64,000 nt of DNA from Raja brachyura. Lineage: Eukaryota. The stretch's first letter is position 1. Every line of letters begins with the position of its first letter. Below are positions 12,631 to 44,504 of this stretch, one piece after another. The DNA is taken from contig OY740814.1 in assembly GCA_963514005.1 (NCBI GenBank), forward strand, positions 13,206,001-13,270,000. Reading direction: 5' to 3'. Both the position numbers and the translations under genes were made by a program. Below the pieces are notes generated by a model, which saw only the letters and a list, made by a program, of their open reading frames with translations, was not told the origin of the DNA and made no database searches.

Positions 12631-13804
12631 ATTTTGGATTTAAACGTTCTTGACTCTTATACTGTCAATTTAATTGCACCCTATCAGAGAGTAACAGGTA
12701 CCTGGAAAGCGATGCCAGGGGTGCTGGTGTAGTCGGATAAGATAGTGCCATTTGAGAGGCGTTTAGATATGCACATGGATATCTAGGGAATAGAGGGAAA
12801 TGTGGGGTATAGAGGGATATGAATTCAGTGCAGAGGAGATTAGATTAATTTGGCATCATGTTGAGCACAGACATTGTAGGCAGTAGGGCCTGCCCCTGTA
12901 CTGTGCTGTTCTATGTTGATCCAACTCTACCAGCCTACCTGGACACACAACAACATTTAATACTAAGGCCCCATGACAAGCCACAAGAAGAAGTTGCCTG
13001 GATGACTTTGGAAATACTTCAAGGATAGTTTGGTAGAATTGTTGGCCCATGGTTGTTCATAATGGCAACGCATCTGGAATGGCCCCTGCAACCTTGAGTC
13101 CCCTCATCAGGAGCAAGTGGGTGTCCAGTTCAACAGTGAAAAGTGTGCACAAACTCTCACATTACCTTCCACCACTTCCTGCTCCATCTGTCCGAGGCAG
13201 CATTTCGGGCATGATATTGGCTTCGAATGTCCTCAGAACCCAATAAGCTGGAGTGGAAGCAAACCATCCTCATGTCCAAGGCCATCCTGAAGAAAGGATA
13301 ACTGTGGTTTTGGAAGCTCACGGCGTCAGGTGCCATTAAATAAACAAAGTGTTTCGTGATGGTAGGTGTCTTCAACTAAATCACAAGAATGGCAGAGACC
13401 ATATAACAATAAATAACAATGGGACACAGACTCTGAAGGTAGTCAACTAATCTGAAATAAGCTAACACAATCTACCACCCAAGTCACCCCATTCTGTGCA
13501 GGATTGGAAGATTAAATTATCTCCACTAGTGGTCGAAAACGAGCCTGTCGCCATTTGCAGCTCAAATTTCCTCACAGCTATTTGTTTTCTTGGTTCCTCA
13601 TGACAAGGGACAAGAGGCGAACAGCGGCGGGCTTGAGGGAGAGAAGGCTCCTGGACAGCCAGCGCTTGTTTCGAGGGGAGGGACGGCGGTCGCACTCGGT
13701 GTGTATTGAGCGGCTCGGGTTCCGTCGGGGGCCGTAGCGACGGCGGGGCGGGGTTCGAGCGACGTGTTTATGCGACGCGGATCCACCCAACCCCGAGCAA
13801 CAAC

Positions 13805-13843
13805 ATGAAGCTGGCGGCGGTCACGGTTCTCGTCTCCGTCTGA
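13805..13843 (+). other. Upstream ORF MKLAAVTVLVSV-UGA, in frame with the SECISBP2L start
   Basis: caacATGa at 13805 (A at -3), TGA at 13841-13843, then 11 sense codons to ATG 13877 (offset 72 nt). Whether it lies within the transcript depends on the unknown TSS. Confidence 0.55.
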
Positions 13844-13876
13844 CAGCGCCTGGCCGCCGTGGGTCGGGTAGCGGGC

Positions 13877-13900
13877 ATGGAGAAGGGAGAGGCGGCTAAG
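13877..13900 (+). CDS. SECISBP2L: SECISBP2L exon 1 (MEKGEAAK)
   Basis: Strong Kozak ggcATGg, 8 codons, donor AAG|gtgaga, phase 0 matching exon 2. Confidence 0.85.
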
Positions 13901-14128
13901 GTGAGACGCGGACCGGGCGTTCGTGCGGGCGGGCTCGGCTCCCGGGCCTGCAGCCCTGTACTGAGAGGAGGCCCGGACCCCGCCGGAGCGTTGCTCCCGC
14001 ACCCGAGGCCGGACGGCAGCCGGCTTCCCGGCAGTGGCGTCCCCTCCTCTCCCCTCTCCCCTCGCTGCTCACTGCCAGCCCGGGTCCACACTCGGGGGTC
14101 GCGGCGGCGTTTAGTCAGTAGTACAGAG

Positions 14129-14159
14129 CAAAGATACTAGCTCCGCTATAGGATCTTTG
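14129..14159. mobile_element. 31-bp palindromic mini-element with 8-bp TSD
   Basis: gtacagag at 14121-28 and 14160-67 flanks caaagatactag...ctataggatctttg (inverted termini). Confidence 0.75.
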
Positions 14160-17100
14160 GTACAGAGAGCGGCGACATGAACATCCCTCCGTTACAGCTG
14201 GAACTGTGGAGCAGCCCGGTCCAGTCCTTAAACCAAGGCGAGCACAGTTTGGATGGTCAACTGGGGAAAGCAACCAACAAAATAGTCGTCAAGTGTTTTA
14301 TTAATTCTCTGTTAACTGTCCAGTTGCATTGTAATACTAGCTTTGTACTTTCCATATCTGATCCTCTGGTGATAACGCAGCTTTTGCCTCGGGATCTTTT
14401 GTCAGTGGCACACTTAAAGAATGTGGCATAACCTGCGCTGCAGAAATTAGATCGTTAAGAATGCCCTGAGTAAAGGAATGAAAACTATGTAATGCTATCG
14501 AACTGATTCGAAGTTATGGGAGTAATTAAATTAAATTTATGATTAAACAAATGTTATTATAGAACATAAGACGTTCGCTGTTCCTCTAGGTAGGCGTTCT
14601 CCTTAATTGTTACAGATTCCAGCATCTGCAGGATATTGTGTTTTATGATTTAAATATTTACAATTCTGAATTTAAACTATAAAGACCTCAATGATTTTGC
14701 TGAACCTGAGAACATTTAAAAAGACAATTGCAATTCAATTGAAGCAAATGTGGTTTCCCTGATCATAATATGTAATATTTGAATTGTCCTCGGGTTTTTG
14801 ATACCATTTTAGTAGCTTTACACAATTTACTGGCCCAGTTAAAAATGTTGAAACAGCCTCTATACATGACTGTACCTTGTGGTGATTTTGTTTCTTGCTA
14901 TTTTTTAAGTTTAATATTTTCTTAGTAATTGCATTCTATATTTAAGTTAATTTATCAGGAATTCGTATAGTAATTCTACTTGATAGTATGGTCTGAAGTT
15001 CAAACTGAGAACATGGCAAGATTAGATCCTGATGGGTTAATTTGGGACTGTGGCTGCACGTTTGATCTAAAAACTGAAAGTCGCCATTCCCCACTATCCA
15101 TTTATCGACATTTTAGTAATTATTATTTCTTACTTCATACACACTTAATCAAACTATTGTGGATGGTGGCCAGATAGCAATATATATCTTATAGAGTAAT
15201 GCAAGTCATTTTTTAGAAAAAATATTTTTAAAATTATCTTAATTTCAATCTACCCTAGACCATAATTTTACTTAATTAAACTTATTTGTGAAACATAATC
15301 AAAACCAGTCCATAATTGCAATGTATTTATTAAAACAAAATTAATTTTTAAGTTGTGATTGTGGGTGTTGCAACAGAGGCTTGGGAAATTGACCTCTGAA
15401 CATTACACGTGAGCGGTCTTATCTCTAAATGTAAATTGGTTTTTGCACCAGATTTCAGATAACAGTTGTTAGTCCAGGTAATTGTGGCTGTCTTTGTAGC
15501 TTGGTATCTCAAATTAATCTTTGAAAGTTACTTGGTGCTCTTGATGGCTGACTTCTTGCAACAAACCACCCCATCTCCTCCTTGTTAAATTTTTGAATGT
15601 ATTGTTCCTATTTAAGCACTGTTTGAAATTGTCATTAAATGATATCTCAATAGCTAGAGATTACCTTTAAATTATTCCATACCTGCTAATCTTTGAGCAG
15701 CCTCTGTTTCCACGAAGCATTCTCTCAAGGTCCCTAATTACTTTTTAAAATGTGTGAGGAACAACAGTCATTCCTTTGTCTTTCTCATTGGCATAGTATT
15801 TTGATTATATTTCTCATGGGGGCAGGATCAACTTCCAATTGTTCTGTAAACACCGTCCAGTTGTATCTCTCTGGTTCCAAAAATACTTTTTATGGTCACT
15901 GAGCCAGAATTGCCTGTTGTGGGAAAATAAAGCCTCTGTTTTCCTTACATAGATCCAGTCTACTTGCTTGGCTGCTAGAATTAATGAGATAGAATGAAGC
16001 CTCAGATTGTCCAGTTCAGAACTGTGCTTAAAATGGTACATCGCAAAAATTAACTTTGTGGTTCATAGCATAATGTATTTCCAACTCAAGTTTGACCTAG
16101 CAATAAAACACATATTCTTTTACTATCCCAATAGGATGGATATCAGTTGAAAGATTAGTTGTGCTTGTGGTAAAAGCAAATTATTTGAAGGGGGACTTAA
16201 TTTTTCACATGTATTGGGATGAACAGGAATGTTAATCAGATAGCTTTAGAATTCCTTGAATACATTAAAGTTGGATTACTGGAGTGATATATTTTGGAAC
16301 CTACAAGGGAATAACCCATAATATACTATGTAAGTAATAGACCAAAAGAATAAGGAAGTGCATATATAGCTAAGCATATTACATTCAATGTTAATTTTAT
16401 GAAGAAATAACTGAGTTTCTAAATGGTGATTGAGCTCCTTTTAAAACGATGAGAAGGAGACTGACAGCAAAGTTTTTCATCTATATCGTAGAATATGTGA
16501 GAATAATAAACCAATATCAAATTGGGCAAAACCTGTAAAGTTAAATCAGAAATGGATAGTTGCACATGTTCAAAAGGAATTGAATATAGAATCGGCATGT
16601 ACTCATTGGGGGCAAGGGGCTCGACTCACTAAAATTAAGAAAGGAGAATTACTGAGATTGTTTCCACACCAGGATTAAAAGTTATTTCAGCTGCACTCGG
16701 TACAGGATTTATTTTTATAGATTGAGGAAAGATGCAGATGCTAAATTTCCACATGAAAAAGCTGTTTGCTCAAAATTAGTCCTCTTAAAATTGAAGGCAA
16801 AATTATTGTGTTGCGTAATGATTAGTTGGTCAGTAGATGATGGAGAGCGTGGACAATGCAACATTGAAACCAAGCTGCAGGTGGTGTCCAATTGGATTCT
16901 ACACTTGGTTCTCAAAAATTCTCAATAACCTTTCTTCTTTGGTAATGCAAATAATTTGGCCGTGTGTCCCGGTTTGCTAAATGTAGCTCGGAAAATAAAA
17001 TCTGAGAAATTGATTATTATTGAATTAATAATCGAATAATTTAGGGGAATTAGATTTTGATGCAGATTTAAATCTGAGGTAATTTATTTTGAAACTAACA

Positions 17101-18319
17101 ATAAGGAAGCATCCCTGCATTTTCAAATGGTGAAAATCTAGAGATGATGGAAATCCTAATGTAATAGTTGGGGGGGAATAAAATGAAATAAATAATTTAA
17201 TTTCAAAGGATTATATGTTACACTGGTGAAGAAACCACTGGCTAGAACAAGTCTGGAACCATATTTCATACTGATCATCTCTCCTTGAAAGATCTGTTAG
17301 CTGCGAGTGCACTTTTACTAGGTTCAAGTGGTCGTGTTTTCATAAGAAATTTAATTAACCAGGCTGCATTTTTCTGAGATATGAGGGTTGATTTGTTTAT
17401 TTCTGGGATTTTATATGGATTTAGTAAGGTACATAGAAATAAACGTTCCACTAGTGGGTGATTTTAGAACTAGATGACACTTCATTAAAATTACACGGGT
17501 CGTTCAGATGTTCAGAAATGTTTCTTTTTTAAAGTTAGATGCAACTCTGTCCAAAGCAGTTAATGTTATCTGAAATAATTTTAAATCTGTGCTTCTAAAC
17601 AATAGTTTCTGTTCCTTGAGTATTAAGGAATCATAGAACATTGGGATGAGGGTGGCCCTGACTTGAGGTGCTCACATTTAGAGAGAGCCCAGAAACATTT
17701 AGAGAGTCCCCAATCCACTGAGCTAATTTCAACACTATTACAATCCTATTCCATTCTCATTGTAGACCCCTCCTTTACACCAGGGACAATCTGCAACAGC
17801 CAGTTATCCCACCTATTTACATGCCCCCAGGCTTTGGAAGGAAACCTGTGCCTGCAGTGGGGAAATCCATGAGGCCATGGGGAGAATGAGCAAACCCCAG
17901 ATAACGAACGCTGGAGGTCGGGACCAAATCTGGAATGCCAATGCTTTTAAAAAATGCTTGTCCATGCGTAAAAATTGCTCTGAGGCTCCATCCTGCTTCC
18001 GCAGCGTTCTACATTATCTTCTGCAAATTCTTTTTGCAAGTGGCAAATAGGGTCAGGAAAGCGAGATGCAGAGCTCATCATTTTCATAAACTCTCTGATT
18101 CTGTCATTGAGCATTTAGATTAAAAACATGTATGTCTCTCAGTTTTGTTTTAAAGGAGTTGATGGCTATGAGTAGTGGCATGAGATGTGACATTAACTGG
18201 ACATTTCTCAGTATTCACCAAGGTAGAGTATTCACCAACGAAGGGGTAAACTGATATTTTGAACCATGTCTGTATCAGGAAGGTGGAAGAGCTTTAAATA
18301 TATGGATGGATATTAAGAT

Positions 18320-19270
18320 GGTCGTATCTCCAAGGATCTAATCTGCGATTTTGCAGGAAGCAAGAAGATTGCTGGGCCCCTTACAGGGATTTTTGTCAGC
18401 CTCTGGTGATGTGCCAGAAGACTGGAAGATAGCTAATGTTGTCCTCTTATTCACAAAGGGCAATGCGATAAGCCAGGAAGCTTCAGGTTGGTGATCCTGG
18501 CATCAATAGTAGGGAGATTATTGTATTTGTGGACACTTGGAAAGGCATGATCTGATTAGGAGTCGGCATTGTTTTGTGCAGCAGAGATCGTATCTCGTAA
18601 ATGAGCTTGGGATTTTTGAGATGTTAAGTAAAAACATTGATGAAGGCAGAATGGTCATTATGGTTTACATAGACTTTCATATGGCTTTTGGCATGTTCCT
18701 TACAGGTAGGTGGGTCCAGACAGTGAAAGGACATGGAATTCAAGGTGTGTTAGCAAATTGACCCAAATGGGGTTGGTGACAACATGCAGAGAACAGCGGT
18801 GGAGGTTGTTTTTCTGCCTGAAAGTCTGTAACCAGTGAGATACCGCTGGGACTTTTGTTGTTTGTCAACACAAAAATTGATGGAATCATAAATAGCAAAG
18901 AAGGTTATTGAAGGATACAGAGAAACATAAAACAGCTGTGAAGTTGGGCAGAGTGGTGACAAAGGGAATTTAATCTAGACATGAGTGAGTTAATGCATTT
19001 TGAGATGGCACGGTCATGAGGTGGGTCTGCATTCATAATTCTCTGAAATTGGTGTCGCTGGTGAATTAAGGATTGTAGAAGGCATTTTGACATGCTTGCC
19101 TTCATAGACTGAGACATTGAGCATGAGAGTTGTATTGCAGCTGTGCAAAACATTAGTGAGGCTGCACTGGACCTATTATGTATTGTTCTGGTTGACATAC
19201 AATAGAAAGGATGTGGTAGAACATAGGGAGTCCAGATGAGATTCTCCAGATGTTGCCTGGAATATAGTGA
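18320..19270 (+). mobile_element. Degenerate CR1 LINE fragment
   Basis: VPEDWKIANVV-like and VYIDF..AF motifs (ORF 18537..18761). Confidence 0.8.
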
Positions 19271-19674
19271 TTTACTTCCAAACTGAAAATAGATAGGCTG
19301 AAATATGTTGCAATCCCTTTGACTGAATGTTGATTTTAAATAACCAGCCTTTCCAGAACTATGAAAAAACAAGGAATAGTCGATGCTGGTTTACAAAAAA
19401 AGCCGCAAATTGCTGGAGTAACCCAGTCTGAAGAAAGTACTCGACCCAAAACGTCACCCATCCATGTTCTCCAGAGATACTTCCCAATCTGCTGAGTTAT
19501 TCCAGCATTTCTTTTGTCAGAAGTAGCCAGTTCTGATTAGGTTCATCAACTTGTAATGTTTACTTGGTTTCTCTGTCTCAGTTAATGGTGCTTGAGCTGC
19601 TAAAATACTCTTTCATTTCAGATTTGCAGTAAGTGTTATGTTCTGTACACCTCAGTTGTTTTCATTAAGAGTTA

Positions 19675-20252
19675 AGGGCCTGTCCCACCAGCATGCAACT
19701 CCATGCGATAAGCGCGACCTAACGTGGTCGCTTGAGCCGTCCGGCGTCGCGGGGCCAGTCCCACTTCGATCGCCGGAGCCGTGCGGAATTGTGCGGAGTT
19801 CGTCCCAACCGCACGGGGCTCCGAAAAACTGACCATGTTCAAAAATTCTGCGCGGCAACGGCTTGTCGGCTTACTGTCGCCTTGACGCATTACGCATCGC
19901 CTCGACATCGTGCCTCCGTGAACCTATCTGTAGGTGCCTCCGTGACCCTCTGTGTGTGTGGCTCCGTGACCCTCTCTGTGTGTGCCTCTGTGCCCCTCTC
20001 TGTGTGTCCCTCTCCGTCCTGGCGAACTTACCTTTAAGACTTCGCTCCAAGTTCGCCTCACTTTGCGCTGCGTTGCGCCATTCACCGACCTCCGCGCGGC
20101 CCCTGCTGCCGGTTTGGTCGTGCTTGCCGCATGCAGGCGCATGCTGGTGGGACGGCGGGCCCTGTACGGGGATCACCCGACCTCCGCACGGCCCCCGCTG
20201 CCAGTTTGGTCGCGCTCACCGCATGGAATCGCATGCTGGTGGGACAGGCCCT
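19675..20252. mobile_element. PIF/Harbinger-type MITE, CpG-rich
   Basis: TIRs agggcctgtcccaccagcatgc / gcatgctggtgggacaggccct; TTA TSDs at 19672-74 and 20253-55; internal short tandem repeat at ~19935-20015. Confidence 0.88.
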
Positions 20253-20643
20253 TTAGGAATTTCACTAAAACATTTATTTGTTAGAAGAATTTAATTATGT
20301 GTATTTGTACCCAGTATGTGGATTGATATAAAGACATCAGTTCAACTTGCTGGCCTTGGACAGAAATGTTTCATTTTCTGTTAAAGGTTAAGATTCCCAC
20401 TGAATTGAAACACATTGTCTTTTTAATGCAGATATTACATATGTGGTGACCTTTTGCAAAGTGTAATGATAATATCACAAATGGTGTCTCAATGTGCAAG
20501 TATTTGCAACTGCTGTTTTCGTGCCAAGTTGAAGGTTAACAGAGCCTTCAGGTTAAACTATAATGTGATATGTGTTTGAAAATAATTCCTATTGGCTGCA
20601 CTTAAAATTCTGTAATGGCGACTGTAATACATTACGTATGTAT

Positions 20644-22260
20644 TAGACAATAGGTGCAGGAGTAGGCCATTTGGCCCTTCGAGCCAGCACCGCCATTCAA
20701 TGTGATCATGGTTGATCATCCCCAATCAGTACTCCGTTCCTACCTTCTCCCCATATCCCCTGACTCCAGAGAACCTGTCTCCATCGCCCTCTGAGGCAGA
20801 GAATTCCACAGACTCGCCACTCTCTGTGAGAAAAAGTGTTCCCTCGTCTCCATTCTAAATGGCCTACTCCTTAATCTCAAACTGTGGCCCCTGGTTCTGG
20901 ACTCCCCCAACATCGGGAACATGTTTCCTGCCTCTAGTGTGTCCAAGCCTTTAACAATCTTATTTGTTTCAATGAGATCCCTTCTCATCCTCCTAAACTC
21001 CAGAGTGTACAAGCCATTCTCTCGGCATATGACAGTCCCGCCATCCTGGGAATTAACCTTGTAAACCTACGCTGCACTCCCTCAATAGCAAGAATGTCCT
21101 TCCTCAAATTAGGGGACCAAAACTGCACACAATACTCAAGGTGTGGTCTCACTAGGGCTCTGTACAACTGCAGAAGGACCTCTTTGCTCCTATATTCGAT
21201 TCCTCTTGTTATAAAGGCCAACATGCCATTCGCTTTCTTCACTGCCTGCTGTACCTGCATGCTTACTTTCATAGACTGATGTACAAGGGCCCCCAGATCC
21301 CGTTGTACTTCCCCTTTTCCCAACTTGACGCCATTTAGATAGTAATCTCCCTTCCTGTTTTTGCTACCAAAATGGATAACCTCACATTTATCCGCATTAA
21401 ACTTCATCTGCCATGCATCTGCCCACTCCCCCAACCTGTCCAAGACGCCCTGCATTCTCATAGCATCCTCCTCACAGTTCACACTACCACCCAGCTTTGT
21501 GTCATCTGCAAATTTGCTAATGTTACTTTGAATCCCTTCATCCAAATCATTGATGTATGTTGTAAATAGCTGCGGTCTCAGCACCGAGCCTTGCGGTACC
21601 CCACTAGTCACTGCCTGCCATTCTGAAAGGGACCCGTTAATCCCTGCTCTTTGTTTCCTGTCAGCCAACCACTTCTCTATCCATGTCTGCACTCTACCCC
21701 CAATACCATGTGCCTTAATTTTGCCCGCTAATCTCCTATGTGAGACCTTATCAAATGCTTTCTGAAAGCCCAGGTACACTACATCCACTGGCTCTCCCTT
21801 GTCCATTTTCCTAGTTACTTCTTCAAAAAATTCCAGAAGATTAGTTAAGCATGATTTCCCCTTCGTAGATGCTTGCTGACTCGGACCGATCCTGTTACTG
21901 CTATCCAAATGTACGGCAACTCACCTTTTATATCCAGCATCTTCCCCACCACCGATGTCAGGCTAACAGTGGGATAACATTAGCTACCCTCCAATCCACA
22001 GGAATTGATCCTGAGTCTATAGAACATTGGAAAATTATCACCAATGCATCCACGATTTCTAGAGCCACTTCCTTAAGTACCCTGGGATGCAGACCATCAG
22101 GCCCTGGGGATTTATCAGCCTTCAGTCCCATCAGTCTATCCAACACCATTTCCTGCCTAATGTGGATTTCCTCTGTCACCCCAGATCCCATGGCCACTAC
22201 TATATCAGGAAGATTGTTTGTGTCCTCCTTAGTGAAGACAGATCCAAAGTACCTGTTCAC
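20644..22260 (-). mobile_element. CR1 LINE, 5'-truncated, RT region and 3' end
   Basis: ORFs 21958..22260, 20985..21908 and 20740..21012 contain KSPGPDGLHPRVLKE, FQKAFDKV, SGVPQGSVL, KFADDTKL, YCVQFWSP and RTRGHSL; internal deletions and frameshifts. Confidence 0.95.
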
Positions 22261-23990
22261 TTTGAATTACTTTGAATTTAGATCAGCAAGATGCTTTCTT
22301 ATGGCACTTGGATGTCTGCACTTTACAGGTTGTATTGTACCAAACAGCTAAACAAGAGAAAGAATGTTGAAAGAATAAGAATGGTGTGCAAAAAACATTT
22401 CATCAGCAGATCTATAATCACTTGTTTGCGCTATTTAAACATAATTCATTCAGAACTTAATTTGATAGTCGTATTGTTTTGATCATTGATAAACATTCAA
22501 GTTGTTTGAAAAGGCTTCAAAATTTTGATTTTGATATCTTAACTAAGATTAAAGACTTTTGGAGACTAATTGGCCGCGCATCAAATCTGATGTTCCTGAA
22601 TTCCACATCTTCATAATTTAATTTATTCTTTTTATTGTGAAGTCGGGATGTAGTAAAAATTGTTAGAACACATCTTTCAGCATTTGTTTTTGCAGCCCAA
22701 GCTAAGGCAAATGTTACTGATATGTGATAAGTATTTAATGAATGGGTGTTTTTGGTGATAGGCAGTGCAATGTATGGTGAACACTGTCATATTCATTGAG
22801 TCATCCAACTGCACTTGGAGTTCAGCTGCACACTTCATTTTATTTTCCTTTTTAATTTCTTATTTTTTGCCACGTTGGCACCAAACTTTAACTAACGACG
22901 TACATGAATAGATTTGGAGGCAAGTGACTGTAGATGTTGCAAAATTTGGAGCAATAAACTAATTGCTGAAGGGACTCGGTGAGTTGTGCAGCAACTATGG
23001 TGACGAAGGGATGGTCGACATTTACGTCAAGTAAGGCTCACCACTGTGTAACGCTCACTTTTCTCATGCAGTTTTTGTTCCTGCTAATCTTATAGGAACT
23101 GAGAACTAAACGCATTGTTGTTTCAGGATGGTACTTGGCCCATCATTGCACTCATCGGCCCCTGTCCTACCATCCTCATTGGTCGCACAATGGTCATTTC
23201 ACTGTGGTACAAACATGTCTTTCTTTAACAGTATATCCATTAATAAACATAAAGGAGTTTTCATGAAATGAACAGACCTAGCTTTACCCATTGTCCTTTT
23301 TTCTTTTATATCTTTGTTCTGTTCATCTGCTAAAGTCTTCAGTGCTTAAATACAGTACAATTGGCCTTTTTCAGTTTTGTTTTGCATGTGCTATAAAACA
23401 AATTCTTAAATTTTCGTAATCTTTGTGGTATACGCAAGCAATATAGGACTAATGGTGAAGTGGCTTCAACTGTTAATATTTAGATTGCATTATTTTATTT
23501 AAAATCTGAGTTTTAATTGATGTGGTGTATATGTGTATTTTAGCTCATTTCTATTGTTAAAATCAGATCTTTAACAATACTTGAAATCTATCTTCACCCT
23601 CATGTCCAGCAGGACTTATCATCTGCCTAATCACTTCCTTATCTTTTTCCACCTATCACCCACCAGCCTCCATCTCTGAACTTTTCTCTCTTCCCCCCCC
23701 CCCCCCGTTTGTGCTCCATCTGCCCATCTTTCTTTGGCTTCCCGGGTTTCCTCACCCTCTTCCTCCCTCTCACCTCCTCACATTGGTTATTTTCCCTCTA
23801 CATTATCTATCCCGTTGCAAAATCTCGACCATATACATCGACCATCCCATTGGAGGCTGTTAAGTTCCTCCAGCAATTTTTTTTTTTTTAATTTGCTTCA
23901 GATTTCAATGTCTGCATTCTCTTGAGTCTTAAATGGAACCTTATTTATTTTAAAGATGAAAGGTTTATTTGTCTACCGCTCATTAATCTT

Positions 23991-24113
23991 TAAGAAAGAA
24001 CTGCAGATGCTGGAAAAATCGAAGGTAGATCGAATGTAGAAAAAAGCTGGAGAAACTCAGCATCTATGGAGCGAAGGAATAGGCAATGTTTCGGGTTGAG
24101 ACCCTTCCTCAGA
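23991..24113 (-). repeat. Same family, single arm, with the best-preserved hammerhead-like core
   Basis: 12-bp TSD ctcattaatctt at 23979-90 and 24114-25; minus strand ctgaggaagggtctcaacccgaaacatt. Confidence 0.8.
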
Positions 24114-27029
24114 CTCATTAATCTTGTTATTTTTGTGGCCTGGAGCTAATTTCGATTGCAATAATTTATTTCAAACAATTCAAATGCCTGAAATGTTTTG
24201 ACTTTGAAGCAAGTGGGAGGCAAGTGTCACACATTAGACTTGGAATTTATTCCATTGGGGAGTAAGAAACAACAGACCACTATCTGGAGGTCCAACCCAT
24301 GAGTGGGCTGAATATTGTTTTCATTCTACATTGCAAATGTAGGTCACAATATTTTAAGTTGAATATTAGATTTTATGTATTGGATAGTAAAGCACTTCCA
24401 ATGAAATCAAATGAATTGGAATAAGTGTATAATTTTTCATATCCAGTTGCACATTTCCTGACAGACAGGGTCAAAATCCTATGATTTTCTGATCTAGATA
24501 GATTTGTCTGCTTACAGTATCTTCCAGGATCCAGATTCACCAGGACATACACAAAGAGCATGCAAATAGATCCAAGAGATGCATAGAACAGAGTGAGCAT
24601 TATATTATGGGATAAAAAAACGGGTTTGGCTAAGCTTGCATTTACAACTATTTAACGCCACCCAATAAATTTGTGTTCCAGATTCAGCATTGACGGTCTC
24701 TTTTGTCTTCCTAATAATTTGAGTATCTAATTTCTGTGATTGCAAAAAAATCTAAAGCTGCATTGGATATGACTTGAAAACTTACTTTCCTTTTATTATA
24801 AAAACATTAAATGTTAGAAATACTAAGTAGGTCAAAAATACAAATTGGGTTATTGTTTGGGTCAAAGACCCTTACTCAGAACTAAGTGAAGAAAAAACAA
24901 GTCTGAAGAAGAGTCCCAGCCAGAAATATTGTCCATGCATTGCCTCCCCAGATGTGCTGCCTGACCTGCTGGGTTCCGCCAGCATATTAATTTTTGCAAA
25001 AGGAGAAAATAGTTGAAGTTGCATAGAGCTTGGGAGCAGAATTGGGATGATGAGGAATATGTTTGAAGTGTGGCAGGGTTGCTTTGAGAATAAGCTGAAA
25101 ACAATGTTATTTAATCAATGGGTTTATGGGGGCAGCTGTCAATCGGACTCGGTGACTGTTATGCCCACCACGTCCACGTCAACTTTTATATCCAACTACA
25201 CTAACCCCATTTGCCCGCATTATGTCAATGGTCTTGTATGCCTTGCCTATTTAATGCTGCACTCCATTTTGCTATCTTTTTAAAATGGCTATCTCGATGT
25301 AGAATAATGCTTTCAAACGCTTTGTTAAGCTGTTTTGGTGCAACTCCTCATCTGATCTTCATGGCTCAGGCTCCAACAGATTTTCATTTGTAAGTTGCTT
25401 GCATGAAGTTCTAATATCCCTTTCACATTATGCTGATCTACTTCAGGGTGTCTATGTAGAAGCCATTCATGCTTAGGCTAGTTCCTTTCAGCATATTTTA
25501 TTACTTTGTCTAGATATTTCTTGCAAAATTATTCTGAACACTTGGAGGTGGGCTTTTGATACGTAGATGAACGTTACGTGTAGCGAAACCACAGGGTGTG
25601 GTCAAATCAGACTGGAGCGGGCACGGTAGAAAGAATACAGTTTTTACCAGATCAGATAGTAAGAAGGGAAAGCTACAATTTGTATATAAATAAAGAGAAT
25701 CTGGTATGTTCACTTCTTTGTACAACTACTTCAACAAAGATTCAATTAAACTAGAAAGAACGACTGGAGGATTTGTTTTTGTTATTGTCTGCGTAAGTTC
25801 TACTCCTCCCCGCCTGTGTAGTAATGGCAATGAAAAGCTGAAGCTTGGAAAAGTTTGAAATTTCCTATACAGTCTACATATTACTTTTAGCAAAATTGTA
25901 AGCTGCTTATCTAATATTGCCTTTCGCCACCTTAGTTAATTACCATTGGATCAATTTTGTAAAATTGTAATGGTGTTACTTCACCGAGAATATTGAAATT
26001 TTGAAATGCTTATCTTCTGGCAAATGTTATAATCTATCTTCCCCATCAAATTTAGCTAAATCATCCCATCTATCCCAACATAATTGGCTTTATTTCTGTT
26101 CAAGACTTTTTAGCTCGGGCTGAGACAATTCTGAGATTATTTGTTTTCATTGTATTGAATACGACTTGTACGTTGACCAGGCTATCAGGCAAAATCCACT
26201 CATCTTTCCAATGCGTCCTTAGATTATTCTTATCTGAGAAACCAAAACATGCCGCTCATTTTGTAATCATCTAAAATATTCATTAATAGCTGTCAATGTT
26301 ACAAAAATTTCTGTGTGTACAACAAGGTTTTTCTTCAAACCAGTTTGAAAAAACATGAACTTACAAGTTACTTTGTAATAGTGCAAAACTATCATATCAG
26401 AAAACACTAATATTTTATTTTTGCTTTATTTACAGAAACTAGTATTCCAGTCTGCCATCATGTGCTAAAATATAGTGAAATAGCCAACTTGATAATAGGA
26501 AGCTGGAAGGATTGTTTTGTAATAGCAGGTAAAATATTATTTAGTTCCCCAAGACTATGTCACTGGTCTTATTCCTTACACATTACCCAGTTTATGCAAA
26601 AGTACATAATTAAAAAATTGTTACATTTATAATGTTTAATGAAATATCACATTGATGAATTTTATTGTAGGTGAAAGGTATATAAAATTATTGTTGCTGT
26701 TATTTTAATCGCCCTAATATATTCAGTTGTTTTGTTGTATTGCTATTTTACAGTGCATGATAGCAGGAAATTTATTTTGCAACTTTGGTCCATTCCAGTC
26801 TACAATCACATTTTCCACTAATATATGATGTACAATGGCTAATAGCAAACATTTGTTGTAATTTCTTAGTTAATGGAACAGCAGGTTTTTTCCATCCAAA
26901 ATATCTGAAGTTAATTTGGAGAGACATTTTTTAAATAAAATTACTGTCAATTTCTATTCCAATAAAAAGCATTGTTGTTTCATAGAACAATGACCAATGA
27001 ATAACAGAGCAGAGGAACAGGAACTTTGA

Positions 27030-35863: not shown

Positions 35864-36039
35864 GATATCCAGCTTTCAGCAGAGGTAGAGCCATTTATAC
35901 CCCAGAAGAAGGGTATTGAGACGGTTGTTCCTATGGCACTCCAAAATGATGGAAATGGTTGTGGTGTTGAAGGTCCGCCTATTCCAAGTTACTTGATAAC
36001 CTGTTATCCCTTTGTACAAGAAAACCAATCTAATAATAG
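35864..36039 (+). CDS. SECISBP2L: SECISBP2L exon 2 (DIQLSAEVEPFIPQKK...YLITCYPFVQENQSNN)
   Basis: tttag|GAT acceptor, AG|gtgagt donor; conserved SBP2/SBP2L N-terminal motif. Confidence 0.95.
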
Positions 36040-42946: not shown

Positions 42947-44504
42947 CAGTGCCCTCCATAATGTTTGGGACAAAGATCCATCATTTATTTGTTTGCCTCT
43001 GTACTCCACAATTTGAGATTTGTAATATAAAAAATCACATGTGGTTAAAGTGCACATTGTCAGATTTTATTAAAGGGTATTTTTATACATTTTGGTTTCA
43101 CCATGTAGAAATTACAGCAGTGTTTATACACAGTCCCCCGATTTCAGGGCGCCATAATGTTTGGGACACATGGCTTCACAAGTGTTTGTAATTGCTCAGG
43201 TATGTTTAAATGCCTCCTTAATGCAGGTATAAGAGAGCTCTCAGCACCTAGTCTTTCCTCCAGTCTTTCCATTACCTTTGGAAACTTTTATTGCTGTTTA
43301 TCAACATGAGGACCAAAGTTGTGCCAATGAAAGTCAAAGAAACCATTATGAGACTGAGAAACGGGAATAAAACTGTTAAAGACATCAGCCAAACCTTAGG
43401 CTTGCCAAAATCAAATGTATGGGACATCATTAAGAAGAAAGAGAGCACTGGTGAGCTTACTAATTGCAAAGGGACTGGCAGGCCAACAAAGACCTCCACA
43501 GTTGATGACAAAAGAATTCTCTCTATAACAAAGAAAAATCCCCCAACATCTGTTCGACAGATCAGACACACTCTTCAGGAGTCGGGTGTGGATATATCAA
43601 TGACCACTGTCCGCAGAAGACTTCATGAACAGAAAGACAGCGGCTACACTGCGAGATGCAAACCACTGGTTAACCGTAAAAATAGGATGGCCAGGTTACA
43701 GTTTGCCAAGAAATACTTAAAAGAGCAACCACAGTTCTGGAAAAAGGTCTTGTGGACAGATGACACGAGGATTAACTTGTATCAGAGTGATGGCAAGAGC
43801 AAAATGTGGAGGAGAGAAGGAACTGCTCAAAATCCAAAGCATACCACCTCATCTGTGAAACACGGTGGTGGGGATGTTATGACCTGGGCATGTATGGCTG
43901 CTGAATGTACTGGCTCGCTTATCTTAATTGATGATACAGCTGCTGTTGGTTGTAGCATAATGAATTCTGAAGTGTATAGACACATCCTATCTGCTTAAGT
44001 TCAAACAAATGCCTCAAAACTCATTGGCCGGCGGTTCATTCTACAGCAGGACAATGATCCCAAACATACTGCTAAAGCAACAAAGGAGTTTTTCAAAGCT
44101 AAAAAATGCTCAATTCTTGAGTCAGTCACCTGGTCTGAACCCAATTGAGCATAACTTTTATATGCTGAAGAGAAAACTGAAGGGAAAAAGCATAAGCTGA
44201 AGATGGCTGCAATACAGGCCTGGCAGAGCATCACCAGAGAAGACACCCAGCAACTGGTGATGTCCATGAATAGCATACTTCAAGCATTCATTGCATGTAA
44301 AGGATATGCAACAAAATAATAAACATAACTACTTTCATTTACATGTCATTGCTCTGACACAGACATTATGGTGCCCTGAAATGGAGGGGACTACGTATAA
44401 ACACAACTGTAATTACCCTTTATTAAAATCTGACAATGTGCACTTTAACCACATGAAAATAAATAAATTATGGGTCTTTGTCCCAAACATTATGGAAGGC
44501 AATG
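42947..44504 (+). mobile_element. Tc1/mariner DNA transposon, IR/DR type, full length but decayed
   Basis: TA TSDs at 42945-46 and 44505-06. Left TIR cagtgccctccataatgtttgggacaaaga matches the right end with few mismatches; inner direct repeats near 43145-43170 and 44355-44382. Confidence 0.95.
43306..44319 (+). pseudogene. Tc1 DDE transposase pseudogene
   Basis: HTH N-terminus, GRPTKT, VLWTDD, KHGGG, then QQDNDPKHT and SPGLNPIE. Premature TAA at 43996-43998 and frameshifts after ~44120. Confidence 0.92.

What the first reader, a model, noticed from the sequence alone, without database searches (positions are those of the whole stretch)
13805..13879. In-frame upstream AUG separated from SECISBP2L by a single UGA plus a downstream stem-loop: candidate UGA-recoding autoregulatory switch
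Seen: ATG 13805 (caacATGa, A at -3) opens MKLAAVTVLVSV-TGA (13841-43). The frame then continues without a stop (QRLAAVGRVAG) into the main ATG 13877. The stop reads UGA-C. A hairpin (gcctggcc 13848-55 paired with ggtcgggt 13862-69, including G-U pairs, 6-nt loop) starts 4 nt after it. Established: SBP2-family proteins recode UGA to Sec; UGA-C is the leakiest stop context; stem-loops just 3' of UGA (the SELENON SRE, readthrough elements) stimulate decoding. Inference: ribosomes either terminate here (repressive uORF) or decode UGA and make a 24-aa N-terminally extended isoform with a hydrophobic, Arg-containing leader. That could couple SBP2L output or localisation to selenium or readthrough status. 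Caveats: the in-frame arrangement has a 1-in-3 prior, UGA and hairpins are common in GC-rich DNA, and I found no SECIS in the visible 3' UTR.
Basis: partly seen in the sequence, partly recalled or inferred. Interest (0 to 1): 0.8.

Follow-up and report, generated by a model that had tools for sequence, protein, structure and literature searches.

The report
Ancient upstream brake on SECISBP2L translation
The mRNA leader of this ray-type SECISBP2L gene holds a real 12-codon upstream reading frame that likely just dampens translation, and its UGA is likely an ordinary stop rather than a selenium switch, because the same-length frame in rodents and birds is inferred to lie in another frame and to end in UAG.

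Summary
The anatomy is real. AUG 13805, in-frame UGA-C 13841-43 and main AUG 13877 are as described. Spliced RNA contigs of relatives start at 13736-13759, so the uORF lies in the mRNA, and 8 of 8 related runs laid keep AUG and UGA. The recoding idea is not supported. No SECIS was found in the 3' UTR. The hairpin is no more stable than shuffles (195 of 1000), starts 2-4 nt after the stop where known stimulators need 8 or more, and is weakened by both substitutions seen. The extension is unconstrained (5 amino-acid changes, 2 silent). Human and mouse carry a 39-nt uORF in this leader (Ji 2015). Rodent and bird leaders have no in-frame stop, and fit a 12-13-codon uORF in the +1 frame ending in UAG. 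So the uORF is conserved, while frame and UGA are not. Best reading: an old repressive uORF. That exon would cut the main frame after 18 codons and favour a shorter SBP2L.

The parts
13736..13736 (+). Inferred cap site (transcription start)
   Evidence: contig X20 has a loose 5' end that reads as a template-switch adaptor (adaptor identity recalled) followed by letters matching the window from 13736; the other three RNA contigs begin at 13750, 13753 and 13759. These are relatives, not this species.
13770..13808 (+). uORF1: 12 codons (MRRGSTQPRATT), weak start context (U at -3, C at +4), +1 frame; its UGA overlaps the uORF2 start as AUGA
   Evidence: no substitution listed in its 39 nt in 8 of 8 runs laid
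13805..13843 (+). uORF2 (the finding): 12 codons (MKLAAVTVLVSV), A at -3, ends in UGA-C, in frame with the main ORF
   Evidence: AUG and UGA kept in 8 of 8 runs; body has 5 substituted sites and one 6-nt deletion
13846..13872 (+). GC/GU hairpin between the uORF2 stop and the main AUG (core 13848-55 with 13862-69)
   Evidence: not better than shuffles; substitutions at 13848 and 13853 in relatives each turn a G-U pair into U-U
13877..13900 (+). Main AUG (strong context, G at -3 and +4) and 8 coding codons of exon 1; donor at 13901
   Evidence: all four RNA contigs leave the window at 13900
26436..26528 (+). Exon 1b: extra exon with a TAA at 26466 in the main frame. The 5' end is shown; the 3' end is inferred
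   Evidence: 4 of 4 RNA contigs continue from 13900 into it; exact single match; single match in the genome; branch-point-like and polypyrimidine acceptor, donor candidate at 26529; its last codons match LEGLFC in two shark gene models
35864..36039 (+). Exon 2 with the conserved LSAEVEPF (LSAD-type) motif
   Evidence: motif described in PMC2746813 (passages read)
35933..35935 (+). Next in-frame AUG (Met32), downstream of the LSAE motif; predicted start of a short isoform
   Evidence: first AUG of exon 2; invariant Met in alignment A1; 9 elasmobranch database isoforms start here
63080..64000 (+). Stop codon and start of the 3' UTR, which runs on beyond the window (AATAAA at +3038 and +3092); no SECIS found

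Best explanation
This is a 12-codon upstream open reading frame inside the SECISBP2L mRNA leader that likely lowers output of the main protein, and its UGA likely acts as an ordinary stop. Shown: the AUG lies about 70 nt downstream of the cap site seen in relatives, has A at -3, and the frame stops 33 nt before the main AUG. Inferred: most scanning ribosomes pass the weak AUG at 13770, many start at 13805 and terminate at UGA, and 33 nt is too short for efficient re-initiation, so full-length SBP2L would come mainly from leaky scanning. Inferred: the element is as old as jawed vertebrates in position and length, while frame and stop codon drift, so the in-frame UGA of rays is incidental. Shown in relatives: many transcripts add exon 1b, which stops the main frame after 18 codons. 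Predicted: such transcripts partly escape decay because the stop is close to the start, and yield either no protein or a short SBP2L from AUG 35933 that lacks the LSAE motif.
For: Cap site and spliced RNA cover the uORF. AUG and stop are kept in 7 of 7 related organisms, and the only indel in the uORF is 6 nt, while the first 100 nt of the intron show 5 indels of 4 or 8 nt. Ji 2015 (PMC4739776, supplement rows) lists a translated 39-nt human SECISBP2L uORF and a 39-nt mouse match. It appears in files 1 and 2 of 3, so not in the file of unusually strongly translated uORFs. Four amniote leaders readable as protein are open in the main frame for 34, 66, 70 and 74 codons. In rodent P0301 and buzzard P0146 the only possible +1-frame AUG (-62 and -65 nt) has as only possible stop a UAG after exactly 12 codons. 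Lemming is compatible with 12 codons and cormorant with 13. The uORF body is the most variable part of the leader (5 of 39 sites against 1 of 69 upstream, Fisher p = 0.02), as expected if translation of it matters and the peptide does not. Re-initiation is best about 78 nt after a stop (PMC6614817, abstract start in listing).
Against: No ribosome data or reporter exists for any ray, so repression is inferred. Keeping 6 given bases unchanged has probability about 0.7 at the local rate, so retention among rays is weak evidence, and the runs were found by shared words. The amniote AUG and UAG are deduced from amino-acid compatibility, not read from DNA. Ji's table gives no distance to the main start, so the human frame is undetermined. 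Both ray uORFs are 12 codons; uORF1 shares the amniote frame and uORF2 the amniote position, so which is the orthologue is open. No shark, chimaera or bony-fish leader DNA was obtained. The Bombina model has an in-frame Met 12 codons upstream with no stop and no possible +1 AUG in that stretch.
Confidence: 0.72

Rival explanations
1. The two overlapping uORFs and exon 1b form a regulated re-initiation relay (ATF4-like logic, recalled). Ribosomes that take uORF1 run over the uORF2 start (AUGA overlap) and re-initiate at the main AUG 68 nt later, and conditions that change start-codon stringency or ternary complex shift the ratio of long to short SBP2L.
For: uORF1 is invariant in 8 of 8 runs. 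The AUGA overlap is in the sequence. Exon 1b is used by 4 of 4 RNA contigs and its end is shared with two shark orders. Short isoforms are annotated in 24 of 383 proteins held (one false regex match removed).
Against: uORF1 has a poor start context. Its invariance may reflect promoter DNA and the way the runs were found. uORF2 does not overlap the main ORF as in ATF4. No second uORF is listed for human in Ji 2015. No condition dependence was tested.
Confidence: 0.12
2. The conserved block just after the cap site is kept as DNA (a downstream promoter or transcription-factor element), and the uORFs are tolerated by-products.
For: The invariant block 13755-13819 lies at +20 to +85 of the cap site; the uORF2 body drifts freely.
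Against: The 12-codon length recurs in rays, rodents and birds despite different sequence; the human uORF is translated; the one indel keeps the frame.
Confidence: 0.08
3. One reading: UGA 13841 is decoded (Sec or near-cognate readthrough) to give a 24-residue N-terminal extension, coupling SBP2L to selenium or termination status; at most a ray-specific feature.
For: In-frame UGA-C with an open spacer is kept in 7 of 7 related organisms, with no spacer indel. The hairpin is predicted to form in the free leader. The gene binds SECIS elements.
Against: No SECIS in the window or in the next 8.5 kb. The context is UGA-CAG, not UGA-CUAG, and UGA-C alone gives about 0.7% (PMC5868278, passages). 11-12 nt after the A-site codon lie in the entry channel and known stimulators have spacers of 8 nt or more (PMC13517186, passages), while this stem starts after 2-4 nt. 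Both hairpin substitutions break pairs. There are 5 non-silent against 2 silent sites. No extended homologue was found. There is no in-frame stop in 4 of 4 readable amniote leaders. In exon-1b transcripts readthrough would end at 26466 anyway.
Confidence: 0.04
4. The 12-residue peptide itself is functional (conserved-peptide uORF, for example ribosome stalling).
For: Human-mouse Ka/Ks of 0.285 and a BLASTP-defined match in Ji 2015; constant length.
Against: Twelve codons carry only a few changes, and the authors warn against single-ORF conclusions. In rays there are 3 non-silent sites, 2 silent sites and a 2-codon deletion within 12 codons.
Confidence: 0.04

Closest known systems
Human and mouse SECISBP2L uORF (Ji et al. 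2015, PMC4739776, supplementary files 1 and 2)
   Same: Same gene, 5' leader, 39 nt (12 codons plus stop); translated in human cells; matched in mouse
   Different: In rodents inferred to be in the +1 frame with UAG; here in frame with UGA. The human frame and stop could not be read. Listed in a table only, with no functional study found
Stem-loop-stimulated UGA decoding (SELENON SRE, recalled; viral readthrough elements, PMC13517186)
   Same: UGA followed by a GC-rich stem-loop
   Different: Spacer 2-4 nt against 8 nt or more for the viral elements; no covariation; no SECIS; not conserved in frame
UGA-CUAG cellular readthrough (PMC5868278)
   Same: UGA with C at +4
   Different: The context is CAG, not CUAG; the stop ends a uORF, not the main ORF
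5' alternative splicing of the paralogue SECISBP2 (Papp et al. 2008, PMC2602786)
   Same: 5' splicing creates early stops and shifts initiation to downstream AUGs, removing the LSAD-type motif (PMC2746813)
   Different: Here an added exon in intron 1 of SECISBP2L, shared by rays and sharks, rather than skipped exons
Conserved poison exons of RNA-binding-protein genes (e.g. Smndc1, PMC11357089, seen in listing only)
   Same: Stop-containing, conserved extra exon in an RNA-binding-protein gene
   Different: The stop is only 18 codons from the start, and the exon is in 4 of 4 RNA contigs, so decay is predicted to be weak; feedback was not tested

Membership tests
SECIS-dependent selenoprotein | In-frame UGA | tested here: met
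SECIS-dependent selenoprotein | [quoted passage not shown] | tested here: not met
   Rfam: 0 hits at gathering score in the window; no SECIS family among 4 hits at E up to 10 in the 10 kb from 62500 on. A pattern scan that recovers 3 of 5 Rfam SECIS matches of this genome finds one hit, a tandem repeat at +5244, beyond the likely poly(A) signals. SECISearch3 could not be run.
SECIS-dependent selenoprotein | Homologues with Sec or Cys aligned at the UGA | tested here: not met
   0 hits (short, low-complexity query, so weak tests); none of 383 proteins held carries the extension
SECIS-dependent selenoprotein | In-frame UGA conserved across the gene family | tested here: not met
   Kept in 7 of 7 close relatives; no in-frame stop in 2 rodent and 2 bird leaders
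Stem-loop-stimulated readthrough element | Structure placed outside the entry channel (spacer about 8 nt or more) | tested here: not met
   Stem starts 2-4 nt after the stop; criterion
Stem-loop-stimulated readthrough element | Structure conserved with compensatory changes | tested here: not met
   2 of 2 substitutions in the stem break G-U pairs, in 3 of 7 organisms; the one at 13848 is in a contig of depth 3.7 and may be an error
Stem-loop-stimulated readthrough element | Measured readthrough above background | not testable with these tools
   Needs a reporter or ribosome profiling
Repressive AUG uORF | AUG downstream of the cap site in spliced mRNA | tested here: met
   (relatives' RNA; none from this species)
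Repressive AUG uORF | Usable start context and a stop before the main AUG | tested here: met
Repressive AUG uORF | Conserved presence | tested here: met
   one-to-one orthology of uORF1 or uORF2 with the amniote uORF is open
Repressive AUG uORF | Lowers main-ORF translation | not testable with these tools
   Needs a reporter
Conserved-peptide uORF | Amino-acid constraint on the peptide | tested here: inconclusive
   Not seen in rays; Ka/Ks 0.285 for human-mouse on 12 codons
Poison exon (exon 1b) | Stop more than 50 nt upstream of a later junction | tested here: met
   TAA 26466, 60 nt before the inferred donor; the donor itself is not shown by RNA
Poison exon (exon 1b) | Inclusion triggers NMD and is feedback-regulated | not testable with these tools
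   AUG-proximal stops can evade NMD (PMC3273812, abstract start in listing)

The most novel reading that the evidence does not exclude
In rays, the old 12-codon uORF has slipped into frame, and its UGA is now decoded without a SECIS of its own, so that selenium status or SBP2/SBP2L activity switches the gene between repression and an N-terminally extended SBP2L: a selenium-machinery gene sensing UGA decoding in its own leader.
Probability: 0.04. Interest if true: 0.8.

Novelty: new member of a known kind. Interest (0 to 1): 0.27.

Why it matters
As a UGA-recoding switch it would be a striking feedback loop, but the evidence points away from that. What remains is modest and testable. SECISBP2L, whose role in vertebrates is still unclear, seems to have kept a 12-codon uORF from rays to mammals, and rays and sharks share an extra exon that would remove the conserved N-terminal LSAE motif, whose function is unknown. 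This gives a concrete handle on how SBP2L dose and its N-terminal isoforms are set. It also warns that database 'full-length' models may not be the main transcript in cartilaginous fish.

Tried and rejected
A metagenome scan gave 2 loci from 183 pattern matches, a bird-like and a fish-like exon 2, neither reaching exon 1 nor matching exon 1b. So shark, chimaera and bony-fish leaders stay unread. The run search listed no holder on record as RNA; the four guessed-RNA runs proved spliced. Searches with the read-through product found nothing (0 of 59 candidates; 0 hits); these are weak tests. Tables that might give the human uORF sequence or frame: not held; supplements too large to read (PMC7530721, PMC6007384, PMC4890304 files s1 and s2, PMC13010147); searched without a hit (PMC10032668 6 files, PMC7889888 11 files, PMC5701008 1 small file, PMC6283423 1 near-empty file). 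The unseen supplements may settle the human frame. The SRE paper was not held, so SRE details are recalled. Not in print as far as searched: SECISBP2L with 'uORF' gave 0 papers and with 'upstream open reading frame' 0. None of the 15 listed of 246 mentions the gene; of the 30 listed of 717, 2 mention it, 1 with a single 'autoregulat' hit that was not read. A PAM2-like reading of the LSAE motif (recalled) got no Pfam support. A complex prediction with a PABP MLLE domain was not run, because the domain is split over exons in this genome. Three look-ups in earlier findings returned nothing. A signal or targeting role for the extension was rejected on Leu-to-Pro in 5 of 7 relatives and a 2-codon deletion in 1 of 7; no targeting predictor was run.

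Full report
Gene and observation. The window holds a SECISBP2L gene on the + strand. Exon translations are recognisable from 35864 to the stop at 63080. Exon 2 is 97% identical to the Pristis pectinata protein, and the next hits are rays, then sharks. The 8-codon first coding exon 13877-13900 matches their N-termini. The stem 13848-55/13862-69 is predicted with pair probabilities of 0.91-0.99, and three of its eight pairs are G-U. It is not unusual for this composition: 154 of 200 shuffles and 195 of 1000 fold as well. Only 25 of 480 island 33-mers do, which is the one point for it. In-frame AUG plus a single UGA-C occurs in 313 of 20000 shuffles of the leader.

Is it in the mRNA? I laid 8 of the 20 runs listed: four DNA-type runs (organisms B-E) and four guessed-RNA runs (F, G, H, G). 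The latter leave the window exactly at the donor 13900 and so are spliced RNA. They begin at 13742-13759. One carries a loose 5' end that reads as a template-switch adaptor (recalled) joined to sequence matching from 13736, which places the cap about 70 nt upstream of the AUG. The first refutation test (start site downstream of 13805) is therefore not met. No RNA of this species was available.

Conservation among rays. AUG and TGA show no change in 8 of 8 runs. The only indel in the uORF is 6 nt (organism D), against five indels of 4 or 8 nt in the first 100 nt of the intron. This is weak: six given bases stay unchanged with probability about 0.7 at the local rate. What changes is informative. 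Over the 24-codon hypothetical extension there are 5 non-silent sites (13820 V>I, 13830 L>P, 13835 S>T, 13848 R>L, 13853 A>S) and 2 silent ones (13825, 13828), read by hand. Leu9 is Pro in 5 of 7 organisms. The uORF body is the most variable part of the leader (5 of 39 sites against 1 of 69 upstream, p = 0.02). Both stem substitutions turn G-U into U-U, with no compensation; one of them is in a low-depth contig.

Conservation beyond rays. Leader DNA of named vertebrates could not be fetched, so I used two indirect sources. First, Ji et al. 2015 (PMC4739776; supplement rows and passages) list a translated human SECISBP2L uORF at transcript positions 198-236 and a mouse match at 186-224. Both are 39 nt, the length of the uORF here. 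Second, of 383 proteins held, 27 have more than 16 residues before the LSAE motif. I dropped 20 of them as apparent alternative exons, intron read-ins or repeat expansions. The other 7 records, from 5 species, appear to read straight through the leader: a rodent-cluster Logan protein (P0301), lemming, cormorant, buzzard and Bombina. The four amniote leaders are open in the main frame for 34, 66, 74 and 70 codons, so an in-frame stop 11-12 codons upstream does not exist there. Enumerating compatible codons, P0301 and the buzzard allow only one +1-frame AUG (His-Gly, at -62 and -65 nt), and from it only one stop, UAG at Leu-Glu, after exactly 12 codons. Lemming is compatible with the same 12 codons and cormorant with 13 (-68 nt); each has one other possible stop. 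This independently reproduces the 39 nt of the mouse row. The deduction rests on amino acids, not DNA, and the human frame is unknown. Bombina has an in-frame Met 12 codons upstream without a stop and does not fit either pattern. Conclusion (inference): a ~12-codon uORF starting 62-72 nt before the main AUG is old, while its frame and stop codon are not conserved.

Recoding tests. Sec insertion needs a SECIS in the 3' UTR (PMC3328465, passages). Rfam finds none in the window or in 10 kb covering the whole likely 3' UTR. The same family does hit elsewhere in this genome (5 matches, 2 above cut-off). My pattern scan recovers 3 of those 5 and finds only a tandem repeat at +5244. Mammalian SBP2L does not promote Sec insertion in vitro, though it backs up Sbp2 in zebrafish (PMC8881744, passages). 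For plain readthrough, UGA-C alone gives about 0.7% and the strong motif is UGA-CUAG (PMC5868278, passages); here the context is UGA-CAG. Eleven to twelve bases after the A-site codon lie in the entry channel, and known stimulatory structures have spacers of 8 nt or more (PMC13517186, passages), so this stem would be melted when UGA is decoded. No extended homologue was found. One Narcine model starts MKLAV and then splices differently, which suggests the upstream AUG exists there too.

(a) A second AUG at 13770 in weak context opens another 12-codon ORF in the +1 frame, whose UGA overlaps the 13805 start as AUGA; it shows no change in 8 of 8 runs. It shares frame and length with the amniote uORF, while uORF2 shares position and length, so orthology is open. 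(b) All four RNA contigs splice from 13900 to 26436, not to exon 2. This single-copy stretch has a good acceptor and a donor candidate at 26529, giving 93 nt, with a TAA after 10 codons in the main frame. Two shark models from different orders carry the identical 11-residue insert KLLEGLFCKLQ, whose LEGLFC maps to the last 30 nt of this exon, so the exon end is shared with sharks. Contigs drop minor forms, so this shows presence and suggests abundance; it does not measure it. The first AUG of exon 2 is in frame at 35933, 129 nt after the stop and past the LSAE motif. Nine elasmobranch database isoforms start there, several from more than one transcript, and similar short forms are annotated in birds, lizards, marsupials and placentals (24 of 383). 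Whether those arise from a homologous exon is untested. The paralogue SECISBP2 is known to use 5' splicing and downstream AUGs in this way (PMC2602786 and PMC2746813, passages). In transcripts with exon 1b, readthrough of UGA 13841 would end at 26466 and make no extended protein.

Mechanism and verdict. Most likely (0.72) this is an ancient repressive uORF whose UGA is an ordinary stop; full-length SBP2L would come from leaky scanning, and exon 1b adds a second layer that favours no protein or a short isoform. Rivals: a regulated two-uORF re-initiation relay (0.12), a DNA element with incidental uORFs (0.08), a functional peptide (0.04), UGA recoding in rays (0.04). Shown: sequence anatomy, mRNA inclusion and exon 1b splicing in relatives, lack of a detectable SECIS, open main frame in four amniote leaders. 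Inferred: repression, orthology, amniote frame and UAG, the 3' end of exon 1b, NMD escape and the short isoform. It is a new member of a known kind: the mammalian uORF is already in a published table, though no paper on it or on the exon was found in the searches named. Interest 0.27.

Noticed in passing
window 26436-26528: Stop-containing exon 1b, used by 4 of 4 RNA contigs of relatives and partly shared with two shark orders; possibly the more interesting feature of this gene's 5' end. The 3' boundary is inferred. AATAAA at 26934 and 26961 allows an intronic end, but two contigs run on for 1.4 and 2.7 kb.
   Followed up: partly
window 13770-13808: Second 12-codon uORF in weak context, overlapping the 13805 start as AUGA, invariant in all runs laid.
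   Followed up: partly
window 35873-35899: The LSAEVEPFIP motif resembles a PABP-binding PAM2 motif (recalled); Pfam gave no match. It would be absent from the short isoform.
   Followed up: partly
protein P0002 (Narcine bancroftii isoform X4): A database model starts MKLAV and joins exon 2 in frame through other sequence: a splicing route, rather than readthrough, from the upstream AUG to an alternative N-terminus. No matching exon was found in this window's intron 1.
   Followed up: partly
protein P0103 (Bombina bombina): In-frame Met 12 codons upstream of the usual start, with no stop between.
   Followed up: no
window 20988-21920 (-) and 43252-43995 (+): Long open frames in introns that look like a LINE reverse-transcriptase fragment and a Tc1/mariner transposase fragment (labels recalled, not searched).
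   Followed up: no
L005 and L006 (G000:C3:132542440-132542501, G000:C10:66881609-66881673): Two SECIS matches above the Rfam cut-off elsewhere in this genome, used as positive controls; their genes were not identified.
   Followed up: no
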